Assembly (NCBI RefSeq): GCF_030013205.1
Contig: NZ_CP122648.1
Origin: Escherichia coli
Lineage (GTDB): Bacteria; Pseudomonadota; Gammaproteobacteria; Enterobacterales; Enterobacteriaceae
Reading direction: 5' to 3' (one strand)
Length of the DNA stretch: 64,000 nucleotides
Shown here: in pieces, positions 5,298 through 33,574 of the stretch
Position numbering within the stretch: the first letter of the stretch is position 1
Layout of the letters: every line of letters begins with the position of its first letter
Made by a program: the position numbers and the translations under genes
Notes under the pieces: generated by a model
The model's database searches: none
Told to the model about the DNA's origin: nothing
What the model saw: only the letters and a program-made list of their open reading frames with translations

Positions 5298-5317
5298 AAA
5301 ATCCTTGTTGATGAAAA
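5298..5317. repeat. attL core: left copy of 20-bp direct repeat AAAATCCTTGTTGATGAAAA (native pdxB start GTG-AAA-ATC-CTT-GTT-GAT-GAA)
   Basis: Exact 20-bp repeat also at 32441..32460; the left copy is preceded by GTG and continues the pdxB N-terminal codons (V)KILVDE before diverging into phage DNA. Confidence 0.7.
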
Positions 5318-5395
5318 AAATGATGATTTAATTTATTGATATAAAAGGATTTATATCAGCACGTGTCCACGTAGTGACCACATTTTCGAGTTACA

Positions 5396-5433
5396 GATAA
5401 CACAAAGCCCGTTTTCACGGGCTTTGTGTTATC
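5396..5433. terminator. Long perfect hairpin (16-bp stem), probable bidirectional terminator
   Basis: gataacacaaagcccg / cgggctttgtgttatc inverted repeat just downstream of the minus-strand cargo operon ending at 5463. Confidence 0.5.
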
Positions 5434-5462
5434 TGGATTGTGGCTAAGCCACATGATTTATG

Positions 5463-6356
5463 CTATTTCCAGTTACAAGCAGCTTGAAGTGGTTTTAGCG
5501 CGTTTGACAGGCCGTTTAAATTGAAAGTTGCACTTACAGGGCTCTCATTATAAGGAGTTATTTTTGTATACATTTTGTTTGAGTTGGCTAGTTTTCGGAT
5601 GAAATCAATGTCATTACCTTTATAAAAAACAGCCTTTGTATCTGTAGATACTAGCCAGTTTCGCTCAACTGCTTTCTGTTTATCAAGACGATAAAGCATG
5701 CTGGTTTGTTCAAGGCCTAAATATACATCCCAACTAAGAAATACTTCGGTTTTCTTTTCTCGGCAAGCTATAAACAGAGTGGGAGTAACCGCTTCTCCAA
5801 ATGGAGTTCTGATATAATCATCACTTTCTAACGATAAAATTACATTTTTCGAATCATCAATTGGCGATGTAGTAATGGATGTGTGCCATTTTCCTACATC
5901 TGTGGCTTTCTCTAATTTTGATTCAGCTTGAACAGCTTTATCCTGTGGGAATAGTTTATCGTAGCAGTTTAGTCTGGCTTCTTTATCATTTTCTGCTCGG
6001 CATTTAGATATCTCAGAAAGATTTGGTTGCTGAGCCTCTGTTGTTACTGGCTTTTCCGTTTTAGATTTTGAGTTTACAGATGGAGTAAATGTTGGAGAAA
6101 AAAAACGATCATAACAAGATAAACGTCTGTCATCATCTTTCTCATCAGGGCATTGATCTCTGCTTTCGAATTTTTCAGCAACTTTCGTTCGAGTCGGTTG
6201 TATTGACTTATCGTAACAAGAAAGTCTGTCTTTATTATTTTCTATTGCTCGGCACTGGAGTACTGCATTGAAGTTATTATGTTCAGTTGCTGCGTGAACA
6301 GGCAGTACACTAATTGATATAAATGATGCACCTATAGAAAAAATTATATTTTTCAT
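5463..6356 (-). CDS. Secreted protein with three Cys-containing repeats (RLSCYDK-type) and a C-terminal domain of unknown function
   Basis: 297-aa ORF; N-terminal signal peptide (cleavage near VHA-AT); three ~40-aa repeats each with an R-L-(S/N)-C-Y-D-(K/R) motif; AT-rich, atypical composition; inside the prophage boundaries. Confidence 0.6.
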   Translation of the reverse strand: MKNIIFSIGASFISISVLPVHAATEHNNFNAVLQCRAIENNKDRLSCYDKSIQPTRTKVAEKFESRDQCPDEKDDDRRLSCYDRFFSPTFTPSVNSKSKTEKPVTTEAQQPNLSEISKCRAENDKEARLNCYDKLFPQDKAVQAESKLEKATDVGKWHTSITTSPIDDSKNVILSLESDDYIRTPFGEAVTPTLFIACREKKTEVFLSWDVYLGLEQTSMLYRLDKQKAVERNWLVSTDTKAVFYKGNDIDFIRKLANSNKMYTKITPYNESPVSATFNLNGLSNALKPLQAACNWK

Positions 6357-6360
6357 TTTG

Positions 6361-6702
6361 TTATCCTTTTGGTTTAGTAAGAAATACTAAAATTCCGATA
6401 ATGATATCGCCAATAACCCATAAACTTCCAATGGTAATTAAACCTAAGCCTGTACCAATAACTGCACCGGCTTTTTCGGCATCGGATGTAGCATTATTTA
6501 TTATTTCACTAGTGCCTCCCAGTCCAACTAAAAGCGTATAGATCATAAAAATATTAAATAATATAAATATCCACTTGATGAGCTTTCCAAAAAATGAACG
6601 CTTAAGTTTTTTTATTTGTTTACCGCAAGCAGGGCAATACAATGCTGAATCGCTCACCTCTTTCTGGCATTCAGGACATTTGATTAATGCCATGTAATCC
6701 AC
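6361..6702 (-). CDS. Small membrane protein with N-terminal zinc ribbon (CPEC...CPAC) and two predicted TM helices
   Basis: 113-aa ORF (real start may be the Met at 6690, MALIKCPECQ...); 4-bp gap to the downstream secreted-protein gene suggests an operon. Confidence 0.55.
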   Translation of the reverse strand: MDYMALIKCPECQKEVSDSALYCPACGKQIKKLKRSFFGKLIKWIFILFNIFMIYTLLVGLGGTSEIINNATSDAEKAGAVIGTGLGLITIGSLWVIGDIIIGILVFLTKPKG

Positions 6703-6954
6703 CTCCTTTGGATCAATACGAGTTGATATTTGTTACAAAACATTTTGATTTTATCAGATTTTTTTTTATTGATAAGTGTCAATTGATTAGCTGGTATAGA
6801 GTGAGACATATAGAAGGGCAGATCTGTATCAGTAGTGATGCAAAAATCCCACAGTTTCATGGAATTTTTGCATTTAGAGCCGTGAGATAGGGTGCCTTAT
6901 CGACCTTACCCTGGCAACCGATTGACGGGGGATTACTCCCCCGTCGCGGTTTCC

Positions 6955-7095
6955 TTACTGCTTACACTGTAAGAACGCCGCAAACTCCGCTCCCCAGAAA
7001 CTCATCCGTATTTCGCACAGCGAACCGTGCAACATCCAGATGATGAGGATTACCGTCACGCAGAACGTGATGGCTGTAAGCGATTTTTGCGACAT
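6955..7095 (-). CDS. hok: Hok/Gef-family type I toxin (46 aa)
   Basis: Unlisted short ORF MSQKSLTAITFCVTVILIIWMLHGSLCEIRMSFWGAEFAAFLQCKQ: single TM helix followed by SLCEIR and E-F/V-AAF motifs typical of Hok/Gef; AAGGAG Shine-Dalgarno 9 nt upstream; structured flanks. Confidence 0.65.
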   Translation of the reverse strand: MSQKSLTAITFCVTVILIIWMLHGSLCEIRMSFWGAEFAAFLQCKQ

Positions 7096-7737: not shown

Positions 7738-8760
7738 ATGGGAAGAGATATAACGCTGTACCCTAAAAAAGCAACTAGAAACGAACTTAAAAATTACCTT
7801 GAAAATTTAGGTTTTAAAAGGTGTAAACATTTGTGGGAATGGCCCCAAGGAACGTTGAATTACTCTTGGTTTGATGATACGGACTTCAAATCTACAGATG
7901 GAGTTTCGGCTGATATATATCCTGTTTCAAATGACGAATTACACATATCTGGTAATAAATGGGCATTGCATGTGCGTAATTTATATAGCGCTAGTTGGCA
8001 TGATGTAAAAATGCTTAATGATGTTCTAAAAGGCGCAAGGAGTCTTTTTGGTGGAACACTTATAGGTGATTATGGGAAAAATAGGTACGCTCCTCTATGG
8101 AAGGATTCTAGTAGTCCGATCAGTCGTGGCATTTCTTCAATATTTAATCATGTCCATCATGAGATTTCCGCTGTTAAACATGCCTTACCTGAACCTTCTA
8201 TTAAATTAAACCTACCGGAAGATGGCGGCTTATCCGAATACTTTGATTACATGCAATGTATGGATCCCAGTAGAGTTATATATAATGGATTAGTACCTTT
8301 TGCGGTTGCTATGTTTGAATACTTTTTCTCTAGAGCTTTTCAAATACTTATAAAGTACGATCCTTTCGCAATAGCAAAAAGAACATCGTATAAGCAAAAA
8401 GTTGATTTTGATATTCTGCTTGAGATAGAGAAAGGAAATATTTCAATAGAAAGTGTTATTGCAAGAAATTACACTTTTCAAAACTTAACCCACCTAAACA
8501 AAGCATATAAAGAGTGGCTGGATATAGATGTGAGAGCGATTCTTTATAAGAAAAAAAGAATTGGAAAATCAGTTGATTTTCTTGAGAATCGAATTTCTGA
8601 AATCATACAATATAGACATGGGATAGTTCATCACTTTGAGTTGGATAGGACCTTAAATCGGGATGGATATATTCATATATTAGATGCGCTAGAAAAAAGC
8701 ATAATTGAATTTATCCATTACATAGAAGGCAAATACAAATTTAAATTAAATGCGTATTAA
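7738..8760 (+). CDS. Orphan AT-rich cargo gene; hypothetical protein with HEPN-like R-x4-H motif near the C-terminus (candidate abortive-infection/defence protein)
   Basis: 340-aa ORF on the strand opposite the flanking late genes D and ogr; low GC; strong start context; C-terminal ...YRHGIVHHFELDRT...; followed by a hairpin. Confidence 0.6.
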   Translation: MGRDITLYPKKATRNELKNYLENLGFKRCKHLWEWPQGTLNYSWFDDTDFKSTDGVSADIYPVSNDELHISGNKWALHVRNLYSASWHDVKMLNDVLKGARSLFGGTLIGDYGKNRYAPLWKDSSSPISRGISSIFNHVHHEISAVKHALPEPSIKLNLPEDGGLSEYFDYMQCMDPSRVIYNGLVPFAVAMFEYFFSRAFQILIKYDPFAIAKRTSYKQKVDFDILLEIEKGNISIESVIARNYTFQNLTHLNKAYKEWLDIDVRAILYKKKRIGKSVDFLENRISEIIQYRHGIVHHFELDRTLNRDGYIHILDALEKSIIEFIHYIEGKYKFKLNAY

Positions 8761-15903: not shown

Positions 15904-16467
15904 ATGCTGAATAATAGAGATATGAATATTAATGAACTTAAAGATTGTATTCACTATGAAGTAATCGGTAGCGAGCGTCCTTTCTCCTGGCGAAAGGCAA
16001 TTGTTCGCGCAATAAAACATAGAAGAGTTCGTTATTTATTTTGGTGGCGCATAGCCAAATACCTTTTTGATAAAGGCGGATACTGTCGGAAGATTGCGGG
16101 GAAAATAGAACGTTTCATTCTTGATAAATATAATGTAACAGTCCCTTTAACTGTAAATATAGGGAAAGGCTTTGATATTTCTTATCTCAACAGTGTTGTT
16201 ATCGGTCACAAAGTAACAATCGGTGAAAATTGTTCAATAAAACCAGGGGTAACTATTGGGCTGCGTGGTGATTTTAATGATATGGATATTGTTATAGGAC
16301 ATAATGTGACCATTGGTTGTAATGCCACCATTCTTGGTGGCAAAGTGCGTATAGGAAACAATGTCACAATAGGTGCTCATGCATTGGTATTGCATGATAT
16401 TCCAGATGATTCAACATTCATCACTAAATTTCAGTCTGAAGTTATCTGCTCGTCCTCCCGCACATAA
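15904..16467 (+). CDS. Hexapeptide-repeat (left-handed beta-helix) acyl/acetyltransferase, cargo at the Z/fun position
   Basis: 187 aa with tandem [LIV]-G-x-x-x-x hexapeptide repeats ([22 protein letters not shown]...[16 protein letters not shown]...); AT-rich; convergent with and overlapping the 3' end of the tail-fibre assembly gene. Confidence 0.7.
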
Positions 16468-17048
16468 CCCTGATTCATCAGCTCTGGCCATACGATATCC
16501 GGAGCTGTACTGGTGTCAATTCTACTCACTAATACTCTGTATTTTCTCCAGGAATCCAGTTGTGAATTTTCCTCGTTTGTTGCTATTTCAAGATTAACTG
16601 CATCCTGCAGAATTGCGATGTTATCTGTTGCTTCCTGGATCAACCTTGCCTTTTTCTCTTCCGCTTCCCGTATCCGAAACAGTTTTTCTGCTTCCTCATC
16701 CTTCACCCAGGATACGCCGTCCCACTTCTGATACTCCCCTGCTGGCGACAACCAGGTGACATTCTCTGGTAGCGGTCCGGGTTCAGAAATAAACAACGCG
16801 TCCCCCGATGCCACGTCATAGACCGTTTTACCACGATGGTCTTCAACAATATTCCACGATTCATTTTCACTGTTAAAAACTGCCACAAAGCCAGCAGGAA
16901 TTTCCGGTGGGGCGATATCTGTAGAATTGGCTGGCAGCCCTGTATGAGGTGGAATATATGCGTCACCTTCACCAATAAACTCATTAGTTCCGGCCAGCAG
17001 GTTATAAATTTTTACAGTACGTGATTGTTCACTCATTCTGAATGCCAT
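16431..17048 (-). CDS. Tail fibre assembly protein (P2 gpG / Tfa family)
   Basis: 205 aa; typical Tfa N-terminal region; start overlaps the stop of the upstream tail-fibre fragment (TAATG). Confidence 0.8.
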
Positions 17049-17395
17049 TATGCAAGCCTCACAATATAATTAAATGCGATGTTTTTAACGGTGTTTTCCG
17101 CGTTACCAGCAGCGTTAACGGTGATGGTGTGTCCATGTGAACCAATCGCAACAGAGTGCGTATGAGCGCCAATAGCTGATTGAGTGTGACGCCATACGCC
17201 CCACGGACCATCAGTGCCATTCCACTTATTGGCGAGTTTACGCATGTATACATTGCCGTCTCTCGTGATAAAACGTTGCGTGCCTGCAAAATTGCCAGCT
17301 GCAAAAACCTCAAGCACACCGACAGCATTATCTTCCGGGAAATTTTTCTCCAGTGTTGCGTTGGTGGATGTTGCTTTAGACCAGATGCCAGTGCA
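17048..17395 (-). pseudogene. Tail fibre gene (H-like), 3' fragment only
   Basis: Open frame from the stop at 17396..17398 to 17048 encodes ...[40 protein letters not shown], a typical tail-fibre C-terminus; no N-terminal part; fused out of frame to the truncated capsid gene. Confidence 0.7.
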
Positions 17396-18033
17396 TCAGC
17401 GTTCGCATACTTACCCGCGTGCGCCACGGTGTTGTCCATGTTACGGGAGGTCAGCGTCACGTCATTCATAACGCGTTCGCTGGCGTCGGTTCTGATGTGC
17501 TCCAGCCACCCCACGTTAACGTCCTGAAGCAACTTGTTGGTGCTGAAGTTGGACTCATCCGCGTGAGACGTGCCGTTGAAACCGATCATGATTCGGTCAA
17601 GCGCCACCTGTCGGGCAATCTGTGCGCTGATGCGGGACTGAAAATCGCTGTGTGCCGACCAGGCATCAAGCTGCGGATACGAAATAAACGTGTCGTAGTT
17701 CACCTGTTCGCACTGGTATTTGCGGTTTTTCAGATCAACCACGTTATTCGGGTTACGGCGTTTTGTTCCGTCATAACTGGTATTCGTGCGCGCAATCGGT
17801 CCTGTGGTATCCAGGAGGATTTTTTCGCCCTTCTGGTCGGTCACGCCGATCACGTTAATTCTTTTTGTAAATTCGGTGCTTTCCTTTGAGGCGTTTTCAA
17901 AACGCTGCTGTACCGAGGGTTCCACGGTAAATCGCGATACCAGTGCGGAAACCGGGATATTGTTAAGCGACGCCTGCTGCGCCATATAGCAACCCAGCTT
18001 GTTGCGGGTAATATCTGACATCACCAGATTCAT
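17381..18033 (-). pseudogene. Major capsid protein gene (P2 gpN-like), truncated after ~217 codons
   Basis: N-terminal 217 aa align with P2 N (FTVEPSV, GEKI, KYxCxQ, IMxGFNG, LQDVxVGWL, RVM); after ADALAS the frame runs into tail-fibre DNA and yields low-complexity sequence. Confidence 0.75.
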
Positions 18034-32416: not shown

Positions 32417-33574
32417 TTGTCAGAGACTGAAAAAGGGTTAAAAATCCTTGTTGATGAAAATATGCCTTATGCCCGCGACTTATTTAGCCGTTTGGGTGAG
32501 GTGACCGCGGTTCCCGGGCGTCCAATCCCCGTGGCTCAACTGGCAGACGCGGATGCGCTGATGGTGCGTTCGGTCACGAAAGTGAATGAATCTTTGCTGG
32601 CAGGAAAACCCATTAAATTTGTTGGCACTGCCACCGCGGGGACCGACCATGTCGATGAAGCGTGGTTAAAGCAGGCGGGAATTGGTTTTTCCGCGGCACC
32701 AGGCTGTAATGCGATTGCGGTGGTGGAATATGTTTTCTCCTCACTGCTGATGCTTGCCGAACGCGATGGATTTTCACTGCGCGAGCGTACCGTGGGGATC
32801 GTGGGCGTTGGTAACGTTGGTCGGCGTTTACAGGCACGACTGGAAGCGTTAGGGATTAAAACCTTACTTTGCGATCCGCCTCGCGCCGACCGTGGGGATG
32901 AGGGTGATTTCCGCTCGCTGGATGAATTAGTTCAGCATGCGGATATTCTGACTTTCCATACGCCACTCTTTAAAGATGGTCCGTACAAAACGCTACATCT
33001 GGCGGATGAAAAACTGATCCGTAGCCTGAAGCCCGGAGCGATTCTGATTAACGCCTGCCGTGGCGCAGTCGTCGATAATACTGCCCTATTGACCTGTCTG
33101 AACGAAGGCCAGAAGTTAAGCGTAGTGCTGGATGTCTGGGAAGGCGAACCGGAACTCAACGTGGAATTGCTGAAAAAAGTGGATATCGGCACGCCGCATA
33201 TCGCAGGCTATACCCTGGAAGGTAAAGCACGCGGTACTACGCAAGTGTTTGAAGCCTATAGCAAGTTTATTGGGCATGAACAACACGTTGCGCTGGATAC
33301 GTTGCTGCCCGCGCCAGAGTTTGGCCGCATTACGCTGCATGGTCCGCTCGATCAACCGACGCTGAAAAGGCTGGTGCATTTGGTGTATGATGTGCGCCGC
33401 GATGACGCACCGCTGCGTAAAGTCGCCGGAATACCGGGTGAGTTCGATAAGCTGCGCAAAAACTATCTTGAGCGCCGTGAATGGTCATCTCTGTATGTGA
33501 TTTGTGATGACGCCAGTGCGGCATCATTGCTGTGTAAACTGGGTTTTAACGCCGTTCATCATCCGGCACGTTAA
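32417..33574 (+). CDS. pdxB: Erythronate-4-phosphate dehydrogenase with phage-supplied 5' end
   Basis: Body matches PdxB ([15 protein letters not shown]...); here the reading frame starts at TTG 32417 behind an AAAGGAG Shine-Dalgarno in phage DNA, giving MSETEKGL + KILVDEN... Confidence 0.85.
32441..32460. repeat. attR core: right copy of the 20-bp direct repeat, inside the pdxB 5' coding region
   Basis: AAAATCCTTGTTGATGAAAA identical to 5298..5317. Confidence 0.7.

What the first reader, a model, noticed from the sequence alone, without database searches (positions are those of the whole stretch)
5440..6890. Two-gene cargo operon next to attL: zinc-ribbon membrane protein plus secreted Cys-repeat protein
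Inside the prophage boundary, between hok/ogr and attL, lies an AT-rich two-gene operon. The first gene encodes a 113-aa protein with an N-terminal zinc ribbon (CPEC...CPAC) and two TM helices. The second, 4 bp downstream, encodes a 297-aa exported protein with three tandem repeats carrying R-L-S/N-C-Y-D-K/R motifs and a C-terminal domain I cannot place. This is not part of the P2 backbone. The architecture could fit a moron affecting the cell envelope (superinfection exclusion, host interaction) or an unrecognised defence pair.
Basis: partly seen in the sequence, partly recalled or inferred. Interest (0 to 1): 0.6.

Follow-up and report, generated by a model that had tools for sequence, protein, structure and literature searches.

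The report
Phage cargo: membrane anchor plus periplasmic VasI protein
A defective P2-like prophage carries a conserved two-gene accessory operon, a small zinc-ribbon inner-membrane protein related to the cell-division protein DrpB plus an exported protein of the poorly understood "type VI secretion-associated" VasI/TagO family; it most likely remodels the cell envelope of the bacterium that carries the phage, but its function has never been tested.

Summary
Two translationally close genes lie on the minus strand, 6361-6693 (110 aa; the 113-aa GTG form is an over-extension) and 5463-6356 (297 aa). The stretch is AT-rich and lies inside a P2-like prophage bounded by 20-bp att cores (5298-5317, 32441-32460) in the flk-pdxB site, which is empty in MG1655.

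The "unplaceable" C-terminal domain is a VasI/TagO domain (Pfam PF11319) with an IalB-like beta-sandwich fold. The three Cys repeats are copies of the family's N-terminal motif. The first protein is a zinc ribbon joined to a two-helix module remotely related to DrpB.

The pair is already annotated in RefSeq ("TagO" plus "zinc ribbon protein"). About 4% of complete E. coli genomes carry it, as do P2-like phages of E. coli, Citrobacter and Klebsiella, always in the variable slot between ogr/hok and att. Both genes are under purifying selection.

Single proteins that fuse the DrpB-like module to a VasI-like domain exist in other Proteobacteria. VasI-like genes also sit next to repressor genes in unrelated temperate phages.

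No T6SS context, no known defence-system match and no literature on function were found. My best guess, at low confidence, is a lysogen-expressed envelope complex that excludes incoming injection machines. Moderately interesting; a new variant of known families.

The parts
6361..6693 (-). Gene 1: 110-aa inner-membrane protein. It has an N-terminal cytoplasmic zinc ribbon and a DrpB-like two-helix hairpin.
   Evidence: ORF. Start fixed by homologue alignment and SD. Pfam zinc ribbon. NCBIfam DrpB/YedR E 1.5e-4. Pfam PF28000 DrpB (weak) on homologues. hhalign to E. coli DrpB E 0.0016. AF2 helical hairpin, pLDDT 76.7. phrog_6586 E 8e-43.
6625..6678 (-). Zinc-ribbon codons (residues 6-23, CPEC...CPAC).
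   Evidence: C6, C20 and C23 invariant and C9 nearly invariant in 28 homologues. Pfam Zn_Ribbon_1.
6364..6612 (-). DrpB-like membrane module (residues 28-110). It has the motifs RSFFGKLIKWxF and LT(K/R)PK.
   Evidence: 301 representative clusters share this module.
5463..6356 (-). Gene 2: 297-aa exported VasI/TagO-family protein.
   Evidence: Pfam VasI PF11319 residues 118-296, E 1.7e-16. TIGR03360 75.9 bits, below its 124.2 cut-off. phrog_1848. PGAP name TagO.
6291..6356 (-). Signal peptide codons (residues 1-22, cleavage after VHA).
   Evidence: One N-terminal hydrophobic window only, K2, A-x-A-type site. No lipobox.
6210..6254 (-). Cys motif repeat 1 (CRAIENNKDRLSCYD, residues 35-49).
   Evidence: AF2 short helical hairpin, pLDDT about 77-82.
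6108..6152 (-). Cys motif repeat 2 (CPDEKDDDRRLSCYD, residues 69-83).
5958..6002 (-). Cys motif repeat 3 (CRAENDKEARLNCYD, residues 119-133). This is the copy shared by all family members.
   Evidence: C119, R128, L129, C131 and D133 invariant in 52 homologues.
5466..5909 (-). C-terminal beta-sandwich domain (residues 150-297) with conserved Cys198/Cys294.
6748..6775 (-). Candidate sigma-70 promoter (TTATCA, 16 nt, TG-TAAAAT) upstream of gene 1.
   Evidence: Consensus scan only; the number of such sites in the region is not above the shuffle expectation.
6702..6708 (-). Shine-Dalgarno AAGGAGG for gene 1.
   Evidence: Sequence.
5395..5434 (.). Perfect 17-bp inverted repeat (AGATAACACAAAGCCCG, 6 nt, CGGGCTTTGTGTTATCT) between the stop of gene 2 and attL. 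It is a possible terminator or an attP-arm element.
   Evidence: Read directly from the sequence. Not called by the terminator scan.
5298..5317 (.). attL core.
   Evidence: 20-bp repeat. Junction against MG1655.
32441..32460 (.). attR core (overlaps the first codons of pdxB).

Best explanation
SHOWN.
- This is an accessory (moron) operon of a P2-like prophage, in the variable slot between ogr/hok and the attachment site.
- Gene 1 makes a 110-aa inner-membrane protein: a cytoplasmic zinc ribbon, then a two-helix hairpin remotely homologous to the divisome and Rcs-activating protein DrpB. Both ends are predicted cytoplasmic, with a periplasmic loop of about 20 residues.
- Gene 2 makes a Sec-exported periplasmic protein: three disulfide-type helical hairpin motifs (C-x11-C, RLxCYD) on flexible linkers, then a VasI/TagO domain with an IalB-like beta-sandwich fold.
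- The two genes are inherited together, are translationally close, and are under purifying selection.

INFERRED.
- The two proteins form one inner-membrane/periplasm complex. The DrpB-like hairpin is the anchor and the VasI-like domain is the working part at the periplasmic face.
- In other Proteobacteria the same two modules are one polypeptide, and those fusions lack the Cys motif. The motif may therefore be the docking element of the secreted form.
- The operon is expressed from its own promoter in the lysogen.

MOST LIKELY ROLE (speculative). It is an envelope barrier of the superinfection-exclusion type. It would interfere with envelope-piercing injection machines, meaning tails of superinfecting phages and possibly T6SS spikes, as they cross the periplasm and inner membrane. 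This is analogous in layout to T4 Imm (a small membrane protein) plus Sp (a periplasmic protein).
For: Identity and cargo status.

Linkage:
- 236 of the 239 E. coli genomes with the TagO C-terminal domain also carry the whole two-gene stretch.
- The same 19 phage records hold both genes.
- The same arrangement occurs in Raoultella, Klebsiella and Enterobacter P2-like prophages even when TagO has only one motif copy.

Fusion evidence:
- Five 50%-identity cluster representatives (P0291, P0268, P0270, P0262, P0224) and locus L072 combine the DrpB-like hairpin, a further TM and a VasI-like domain.
- All five representatives lack the Cys motif.
- P0052 fuses the zinc ribbon, one TM and VasI at the same prophage slot.
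- An E. coli P2-like variant pairs a 250-aa TagO with a non-homologous zinc-ribbon/TM2-domain two-helix protein.

Expression in lysogens (indirect):
- VasI-like genes lie directly downstream of the repressor gene in Brucella phage BiPBO1 and Klebsiella phage ST11-VIM1phi8.1, and beside the CI region in a Labrenzia phage.
- The slot is a cargo hotspot.

Other support:
- Fold matches occur in uncharacterised proteins of T4-like phages (RB16, KP15), as well as of other phages.
- Selection: dN/dS 0.10-0.19.
- Structure.
Against: - There is no experimental datum for the pair.
- PADLOC has no match, and no paper mentions it.
- The promoter is a consensus match no better than chance. Expression in the lysogen is not shown.
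- Physical interaction is inferred only from linkage and fusions.
- The zinc-ribbon/DrpB-like gene also occurs with quite different neighbours (Photorhabdus, Ochrobactrum, Rhizobium, Haemophilus). VasI-like genes occur without it. Neither partner is therefore obligatory for the other.
- The fused versions sit in ordinary chromosomal contexts, not in phages or defence islands. This points to a general envelope role rather than specifically anti-phage activity.
- The only genetics on a VasI protein (V. cholerae VCA0118) shows a role in T6SS-dependent killing, not in protection (PMC3166118).
Confidence: 0.3

Rival explanations
1. Envelope-signalling or divisome modulator. The DrpB-like protein acts like multicopy DrpB. 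It would switch on the Rcs (and Psp) envelope stress responses or bind the septal ring. The lysogen would then make colanic-acid capsule or alter its envelope growth, with TagO as a periplasmic cofactor or input. Protection from phage or T6SS would be an indirect result.
For: - NCBIfam DrpB hit covering 83 of 86 model positions.
- Pfam DrpB (weak) on homologues.
- hhalign E 0.0016 with shared RSxxGKLxxWxF and TRP(K/R) motifs.
- DrpB T89, the one residue whose change abolished Rcs activation, aligns with invariant T106 of the phage protein (PMC11709261).
- Multicopy DrpB activates Rcs through the RcsC periplasmic domain and also induces Psp, and it is a septal-ring protein (PMC11709261, PMC7648144).
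Against: - The homology is remote: 22 bits against a 50-bit cut-off, and hhalign probability 16%.
- The conserved motifs may only reflect membrane insertion.
- DrpB's Rcs effect is a multicopy phenotype with no known physiological role.
- This reading does not explain the strict pairing with a VasI-like protein, nor the occurrence of the module in taxa without Rcs (alpha-proteobacteria, Acinetobacter).
Confidence: 0.2
2. Genuine T6SS accessory. The phage supplies a TagO/VasI protein that improves, or tunes, the host's own type VI secretion system, as VCA0118 does in V. cholerae. This would raise the competitive fitness of lysogens.
For: - Pfam VasI domain E 1.7e-16 and the PGAP name TagO.
- VCA0118 is needed for T6SS-dependent killing of amoebae and E. 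coli, though not for Hcp secretion (PMC3166118).
Against: - The score is below the NCBIfam equivalog cut-off, 75.9 against 124.2 bits.
- None of the contexts inspected is a T6SS cluster. They are P2-like prophages, other temperate phages, a lone Photobacterium gene next to an LprI-like gene, and chromosomal fusions.
- The record for PhiR44_2, which carries the pair, names E. coli C as its host.
- The partner gene has no T6SS counterpart.
Confidence: 0.1
3. Host-interaction or virulence moron. This would be an exported IalB-like protein acting on eukaryotic cells or host factors (adhesion, invasion, serum or lysozyme resistance), like lambda Bor/Lom-type conversion genes.
For: - The DrpB-like anchor is elsewhere fused or adjacent to LprI (lysozyme-inhibitor-like) domains, although the Pfam scores are weak.
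- Carriers include ETEC, STEC and Citrobacter rodentium.
Against: - There is no secretion route beyond the periplasm (a plain Sec signal, no lipobox, no autotransporter).
- The family also occurs in soil, marine and plant-associated bacteria and their phages.
- IalB's own biochemical function is unknown.
Confidence: 0.08

Closest known systems
VasI / TagO (V. cholerae VCA0118; Pfam PF11319 = DUF3121; NCBIfam TIGR03360)
   Same: It has the same domain. The single N-terminal C-x8-RLxCYD motif plus the C-terminal beta domain align over the whole Pfam model (residues 118-296). It is exported and has the same conserved Cys pattern.
   Different: - It has three copies of the N-terminal motif instead of one.
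- It is encoded on a P2-like phage, not in a T6SS cluster.
- It is coupled to a zinc-ribbon/DrpB-like membrane gene.
- It scores below the equivalog cut-off.
- The function of VasI itself is unresolved (PMC3166118, PMC6653060).
IalB, invasion-associated locus B protein of Bartonella (PF06776; PDB 3dtd)
   Different: The Pfam sequence match to IalB is weak (i-Evalue 9e-4), and IalB lacks the Cys-motif hairpins. IalB has no known partner of this kind.
DrpB (YedR) of E. coli
   Same: It has two TM helices with both ends in the cytoplasm and a loop of about 20 residues. It shares the juxtamembrane RSxxGKLxxWxF motif and the C-terminal TRP(K/R) motif, including the residue equivalent to T89.
   Different: It has an extra N-terminal zinc ribbon. 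The similarity is only remote (22 bits). It is phage-borne and paired with a periplasmic protein. Septal localisation, ftsEX suppression and Rcs activation are untested.
T4 Imm + Sp superinfection exclusion (own knowledge, analogy only)
   Same: The layout is alike: a small inner-membrane protein plus a periplasm-facing protein, made by a contractile-tailed phage to block later injection.
   Different: No sequence or fold relation was detected. The activity is not demonstrated here.
Chain 8z5n_A, a component of the sodium-driven polar flagellar motor (I take it to be the MotY N-terminal domain of the Vibrio T ring; own knowledge)

Membership tests
VasI/TagO (PF11319, TIGR03360) | Significant match to the Pfam VasI model over its full length | tested here: met
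   Residues 118-296 match model positions 1-184 of 184, E 1.7e-16. The two extra N-terminal motif copies hit model positions 1-26 and 1-36.
VasI/TagO (PF11319, TIGR03360) | Score at or above the curated NCBIfam equivalog cut-off (124.2 bits) | tested here: not met
   75.9 bits.
VasI/TagO (PF11319, TIGR03360) | Encoded within or next to a T6SS gene cluster | tested here: not met
   Neighbours are flk, hok, ogr and gpD. All homologue contexts inspected are prophages or lone chromosomal genes.
VasI/TagO (PF11319, TIGR03360) | Exported (signal peptide) | tested here: met
   N-terminal hydrophobic segment with VHA|A site. This is a rule-based reading, not a dedicated predictor.
VasI/TagO (PF11319, TIGR03360) | Required for T6SS-dependent killing | not testable with these tools
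   Needs genetics (compare PMC3166118).
IalB-like fold | Beta-sandwich superimposable on 3dtd | tested here: met
DrpB (NF038392 / PF28000) | HMM score above the curated cut-off (50 bits) | tested here: not met
   22 bits, E 1.5e-4. The Pfam DrpB hits precomputed on homologues are marked weak.
DrpB (NF038392 / PF28000) | Two TM helices, N and C termini cytoplasmic, periplasmic loop of about 20 residues, strongest conservation at the end of TMH2 | tested here: met
   Hydropathy and charge distribution. AF2 hairpin H34-66/H71-105. Invariant W92, G95, G100, T106 and P108. DrpB description in PMC7648144.
DrpB (NF038392 / PF28000) | Septal-ring localisation, multicopy suppression of ftsEX, Rcs activation | not testable with these tools
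   Experimental properties (PMC7648144, PMC11709261).
Known anti-phage defence systems (PADLOC-DB 2.0) | Match to any defence-protein model | tested here: not met
   No hit at E up to 0.1 for either protein.
Phage moron (accessory cargo of P2-like phages) | Inside the att sites, absent from sister phages at the same slot, deviant composition, own expression signals | tested here: met
   The promoter is only a consensus match.

The most novel reading that the evidence does not exclude
The pair is a new type of phage-encoded envelope gate. A DrpB-like anchor holds a VasI-fold protein at the periplasmic face of the inner membrane, where it blocks penetration by contractile injection machines, both superinfecting phage tails and T6SS spikes. 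If so, this would also give the first biochemical function for the VasI/TagO/IalB-like domain, whose role in T6SS clusters has been open since 2011.
Probability: 0.15. Interest if true: 0.75.

Novelty: new variant of a known kind. Interest (0 to 1): 0.42.

Why it matters
VasI/TagO is a large protein family: more than 2,000 AlphaFold-cluster matches at E no greater than 0.001. It is named after T6SS, yet it has no known mechanism.

This locus shows that many members are not T6SS genes at all. They are cargo of temperate phages, often beside repressor genes. They have a recurrent membrane partner, a zinc-ribbon/DrpB-like protein that is fused to the VasI-like domain in other bacteria.

That gives a simple two-gene system, testable in E. 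coli, for finding what the domain does. It also adds a third cargo slot (ogr/hok-att) to the P2 hotspots used to mine phage-defence genes. Finally, it flags a systematic over-annotation ("T6SS-associated protein TagO") in prophages.

Tried and rejected
- **PADLOC scan of both proteins and three neighbours:** nothing.
- **Sequence search of PDB with a 52-sequence profile:** only chance hits, E above 0.2.
- **Genome-contig scan with the zinc-ribbon alignment:** Only about 16 of the 79 distinct loci were usable.
- **Literature searches:** searches for protein accessions and PHROG ids, for "P2-like + prophage + TagO", and for DUF3121/PF11319 found no functional work on the phage genes. The two P2-hotspot papers do not mention TagO, T6SS or ogr.
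- **Canonical T6SS component:** considered and rejected. There is no T6SS context and the score is below the equivalog cut-off.
- **Lipoprotein:** rejected, because there is no lipobox.
- **Lysis function (holin/antiholin):** the operon is not in the lysis cassette, and it survives in a prophage that has lost that cassette.
Full report
**1. What is in the sequence**

Two ORFs lie head to tail on the minus strand: 6361..6702 (113 aa from a GTG) and 5463..6356 (297 aa). The region has GC 0.34-0.37 between flanks of 0.52-0.58.

The first ORF really starts at the ATG at 6693, giving 110 aa. Three observations support this:
- All 27 aligned homologues start with M, nearly all of them MAL.
- The Shine-Dalgarno sequence AAGGAGG (6702-6708) overlaps the GTG and sits 8 nt before the ATG.
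- RefSeq also annotates 333 bp.

The stop of gene 1 and the ATG of gene 2 are 4 nt apart, with AAGGA just upstream.

Gene 1 encodes a four-Cys zinc ribbon (C6, C9, C20, C23; Pfam Zn_Ribbon_1 E 2.6e-7). Two long hydrophobic helices follow. The N-terminal part and the C-terminal tail are basic and the 20-residue loop is acidic, which predicts N-in/C-in.

Gene 2 encodes several elements:
- a Sec-type signal peptide (…VHA|A);
- three C-x8-R-L-x-C-Y-D motifs at residues 35-49, 69-83 and 119-133;
- a C-terminal domain with two further conserved cysteines.

**2. Prophage cargo, not core genome**

A 20-bp direct repeat, AAAATCCTTGTTGATGAAAA, lies at 5298-5317 and 32441-32460. MG1655 has the uninterrupted flk-pdxB junction with one copy, overlapping the first codons of pdxB. 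The pair lies inside this insertion, next to hok-like, ogr and gpD genes.

Distribution:
- The whole two-gene stretch is present in 236 of 5,426 complete E. coli genomes. The TagO C-terminal domain alone is in 239.
- It occurs in phage genome records: E. coli P88_4B11, PhiR44_2, Citrobacter Shae_phiSM, and thirteen Klebsiella P2-like phage records.
- In P88_4B11 it lies between hok/ogr and the integrase, that is, next to attP.

Sister P2-like prophages carry different things in the same slot. Some have nothing, one has a Com plus DNA-methyltransferase pair, and one has a short hypothetical gene. So this is a variable cargo slot.

Both genes are under purifying selection: dN/dS is 0.10-0.19 against P88 and phiSM, and synonymous sites are saturated against the Klebsiella-group relatives.

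**3. What the proteins are**

*The 297-aa protein.* It is a member of the VasI/TagO family. Pfam PF11319 matches residues 118-296 over the full model (E 1.7e-16), and the two upstream motif copies hit the first 26-36 model positions. NCBIfam TIGR03360 gives 75.9 bits, below its 124.2-bit equivalog cut-off.

Among 92 homologues, the motif copy number tracks protein length:

| Motif copies | Typical length |
|---|---|
| 1 | about 214 aa |
| 2 | about 250 aa |
| 3 | about 298 aa |

*The 110-aa protein.* It belongs to phrog_6586. Its membrane part is remotely related to E. coli DrpB/YedR:
- NCBIfam NF038392 gives E 1.5e-4 and covers 83 of 86 positions.
- Homologues carry a weak precomputed Pfam PF28000 "DrpB" hit.
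- hhalign gives E 0.0016, with shared RSxxGKLxxWxF and (Y/L)TRP(K/R) motifs.

DrpB T89 is the residue whose change abolished multicopy Rcs activation (PMC11709261). It aligns with the invariant T106 of the phage protein.

This two-helix module defines a family of 301 representative clusters. Members occur with or without the zinc ribbon and with various C-terminal extensions.

**4. Are the two genes one functional unit?**

Evidence for:
- They co-occur in essentially every E. coli genome and phage record that has either gene.
- The same gene order is seen in Raoultella, Klebsiella and Enterobacter P2-like prophages, with one- or three-motif TagO.
- Five representative proteins, plus a Rhodospirillales locus, join the DrpB-like hairpin, a further TM segment and a VasI-like domain in one chain. 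Pfam confirms VasI in three of them.
- All five representatives lack the Cys motif.
- P0052 fuses the zinc ribbon, one TM and VasI at the same prophage slot.
- An E. coli P2-like variant pairs a 250-aa TagO, convergently, with an unrelated zinc-ribbon/TM2-domain protein of the same overall design.

Evidence against strict dependence:
- In Photorhabdus, Ochrobactrum, Rhizobium, Methylococcaceae and Bartonella the zinc-ribbon/DrpB-like gene follows a different gene, one encoding a zinc-ribbon/TM/periplasmic-domain protein.
- In Haemophilus it precedes a small Cys-rich exported protein.
- VasI-like genes occur alone in several phages and in Photobacterium.

The module therefore looks like a general anchor that teams up with different periplasmic domains. 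VasI-like was the most frequent partner in my sample, and weak LprI-like matches were also seen.

**5. Context clues to function**

None of the inspected contexts is a T6SS locus.
- In Brucella phage BiPBO1 the TagO-like gene is immediately downstream of the repressor gene, on the same strand.
- In Klebsiella phage ST11-VIM1phi8.1 it follows a "repressor protein" gene.
- In a Labrenzia phage it sits beside the CI region.

These are the classical places for genes expressed in lysogens.

Foldseek against viral models finds the fold in uncharacterised proteins of several phages, including the T4-like phages RB16 and KP15. The chromosomal fusion proteins lie among housekeeping genes.

The literature offers little. 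[quoted passage not shown] Nothing was found on the phage genes. PADLOC has no match.

**6. Most likely mechanism and rivals**

Shown:
- It is a phage accessory operon.
- It encodes an inner-membrane zinc-ribbon/DrpB-like protein and a periplasmic VasI-fold protein.
- The two genes are inherited together.

Inferred:
- The two proteins form a complex at the periplasmic face of the inner membrane.
- The Cys-motif hairpins are possibly the docking element, because they are absent when the domain is covalently anchored.
- The operon is expressed in the lysogen.

The role I favour, at about 0.3, is an envelope barrier of the superinfection-exclusion type. It would act against injection machines crossing the periplasm. 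In layout it resembles T4 Imm/Sp, an analogy drawn from my own knowledge.

Rivals:
- a DrpB-like trigger of Rcs/Psp or a divisome modulator (about 0.2);
- a true T6SS accessory supplied by the phage (about 0.1);
- a host-interaction factor (about 0.08).

The remainder is "something else, or no benefit". None of these can be settled without experiments.

**7. Novelty and verdict**

The genes are already annotated, and both belong to known families. What appears to be unreported is the following:
- the conserved phage-borne pairing;
- the DrpB relationship of the partner;
- the fusion proteins;
- the multiplied motif;
- the point that "TagO" in prophages is an over-transferred name.

I rate this a new variant of a known kind, of moderate interest.

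Noticed in passing
window 7738-8760 (+): A 340-aa AT-rich gene lies between gpD and ogr. It has a weak RiboL-PSP-HEPN match (PF18735, residues 181-329, E 3.7e-4) and an R-x4-H motif (RHGIVH). There is no PADLOC or NCBIfam hit. The D-ogr slot holds different genes in sister prophages. It is a candidate HEPN abortive-infection or defence moron.
   Followed up: partly
window 5318-32440, especially 16431-18033: The prophage is only 27.1 kb and looks defective. The tail-fibre assembly gene (16431-17048) abuts a 324-aa ORF of which only the first ~220 residues match the major head protein. No large ORFs for terminase small subunit, head completion, lysis, baseplate or tail fibre were seen. The cargo operon is intact in this remnant.
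   Followed up: partly
window 32417-32460 and 5298-5317: The att core overlaps the first codons of pdxB (GTG AAA ATC CTT GTT GAT GAA AA...). At attR the native GTG start and upstream region of pdxB are replaced by phage DNA, and the longest ORF now starts at a TTG at 32417. pdxB expression may therefore depend on phage sequence.
   Followed up: partly
window 6882-6950 and 6955-7095 (-): There is a hok/gef-family toxin gene (46 aa; phrog_251 MokW-like). The conserved 69-bp stretch beside it is found in most of the ~790 E. coli genomes that gave any match, and it includes a 10-bp-stem GC-rich hairpin at 6923-6946.
   Followed up: no
window 5395-5434: A perfect 17-bp inverted repeat lies between the TagO stop codon and attL. 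It could be the operon terminator or a protein-binding element of the attP arm.
   Followed up: no
L085 8001-9126 (E. coli GCA_009776205.1): Another P2-like prophage, at the tamB/ytfP site, carries a two-motif 250-aa TagO convergent with a 98-aa zinc-ribbon/TM2-domain protein instead of the DrpB-like one. The design is the same but the membrane partner is non-homologous.
   Followed up: partly
L008 9284-10330, L010, L011, L015, L016: In Photorhabdus, Ochrobactrum, Rhizobium, a Methylococcaceae MAG and a Bartonella MAG, the DrpB-like gene follows a gene of 232-283 aa for a membrane protein with a conserved periplasmic domain (C-terminal ...PEFLFKF; N-terminal zinc ribbon in four of the five, not Bartonella). 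Pfam finds nothing beyond the ribbon. This is a second recurrent partner of unknown function.
   Followed up: partly
L003 (OR565851.1) and L001 (NC_049343.1): There are annotation slips in public phage records. In Shae_phiSM the label tagO is on the zinc-ribbon gene, the real TagO gene is 'hypothetical', and 'ogr' labels a gpD-sized gene. The 'complete genome' of phage 500465-2 includes the host genes mnmC, fabB, yfcJ and flk.
   Followed up: no
L092 10001-11513 (Photobacterium phosphoreum): A lone VasI-family gene, not in a T6SS cluster, sits next to an LprI (lysozyme-inhibitor family) gene. LprI-like tails, with weak Pfam scores, also occur fused to the DrpB-like module in P0204 and P0229. 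This hints at a shared peptidoglycan or lysozyme theme.
   Followed up: no
E. coli genome hits, e.g. NZ_CP025911.1 (146-kb plasmid): Nine of the 240 places holding the TagO gene are on plasmids rather than chromosomes. These may be prophages integrated in plasmids, or phage-plasmids.
   Followed up: no
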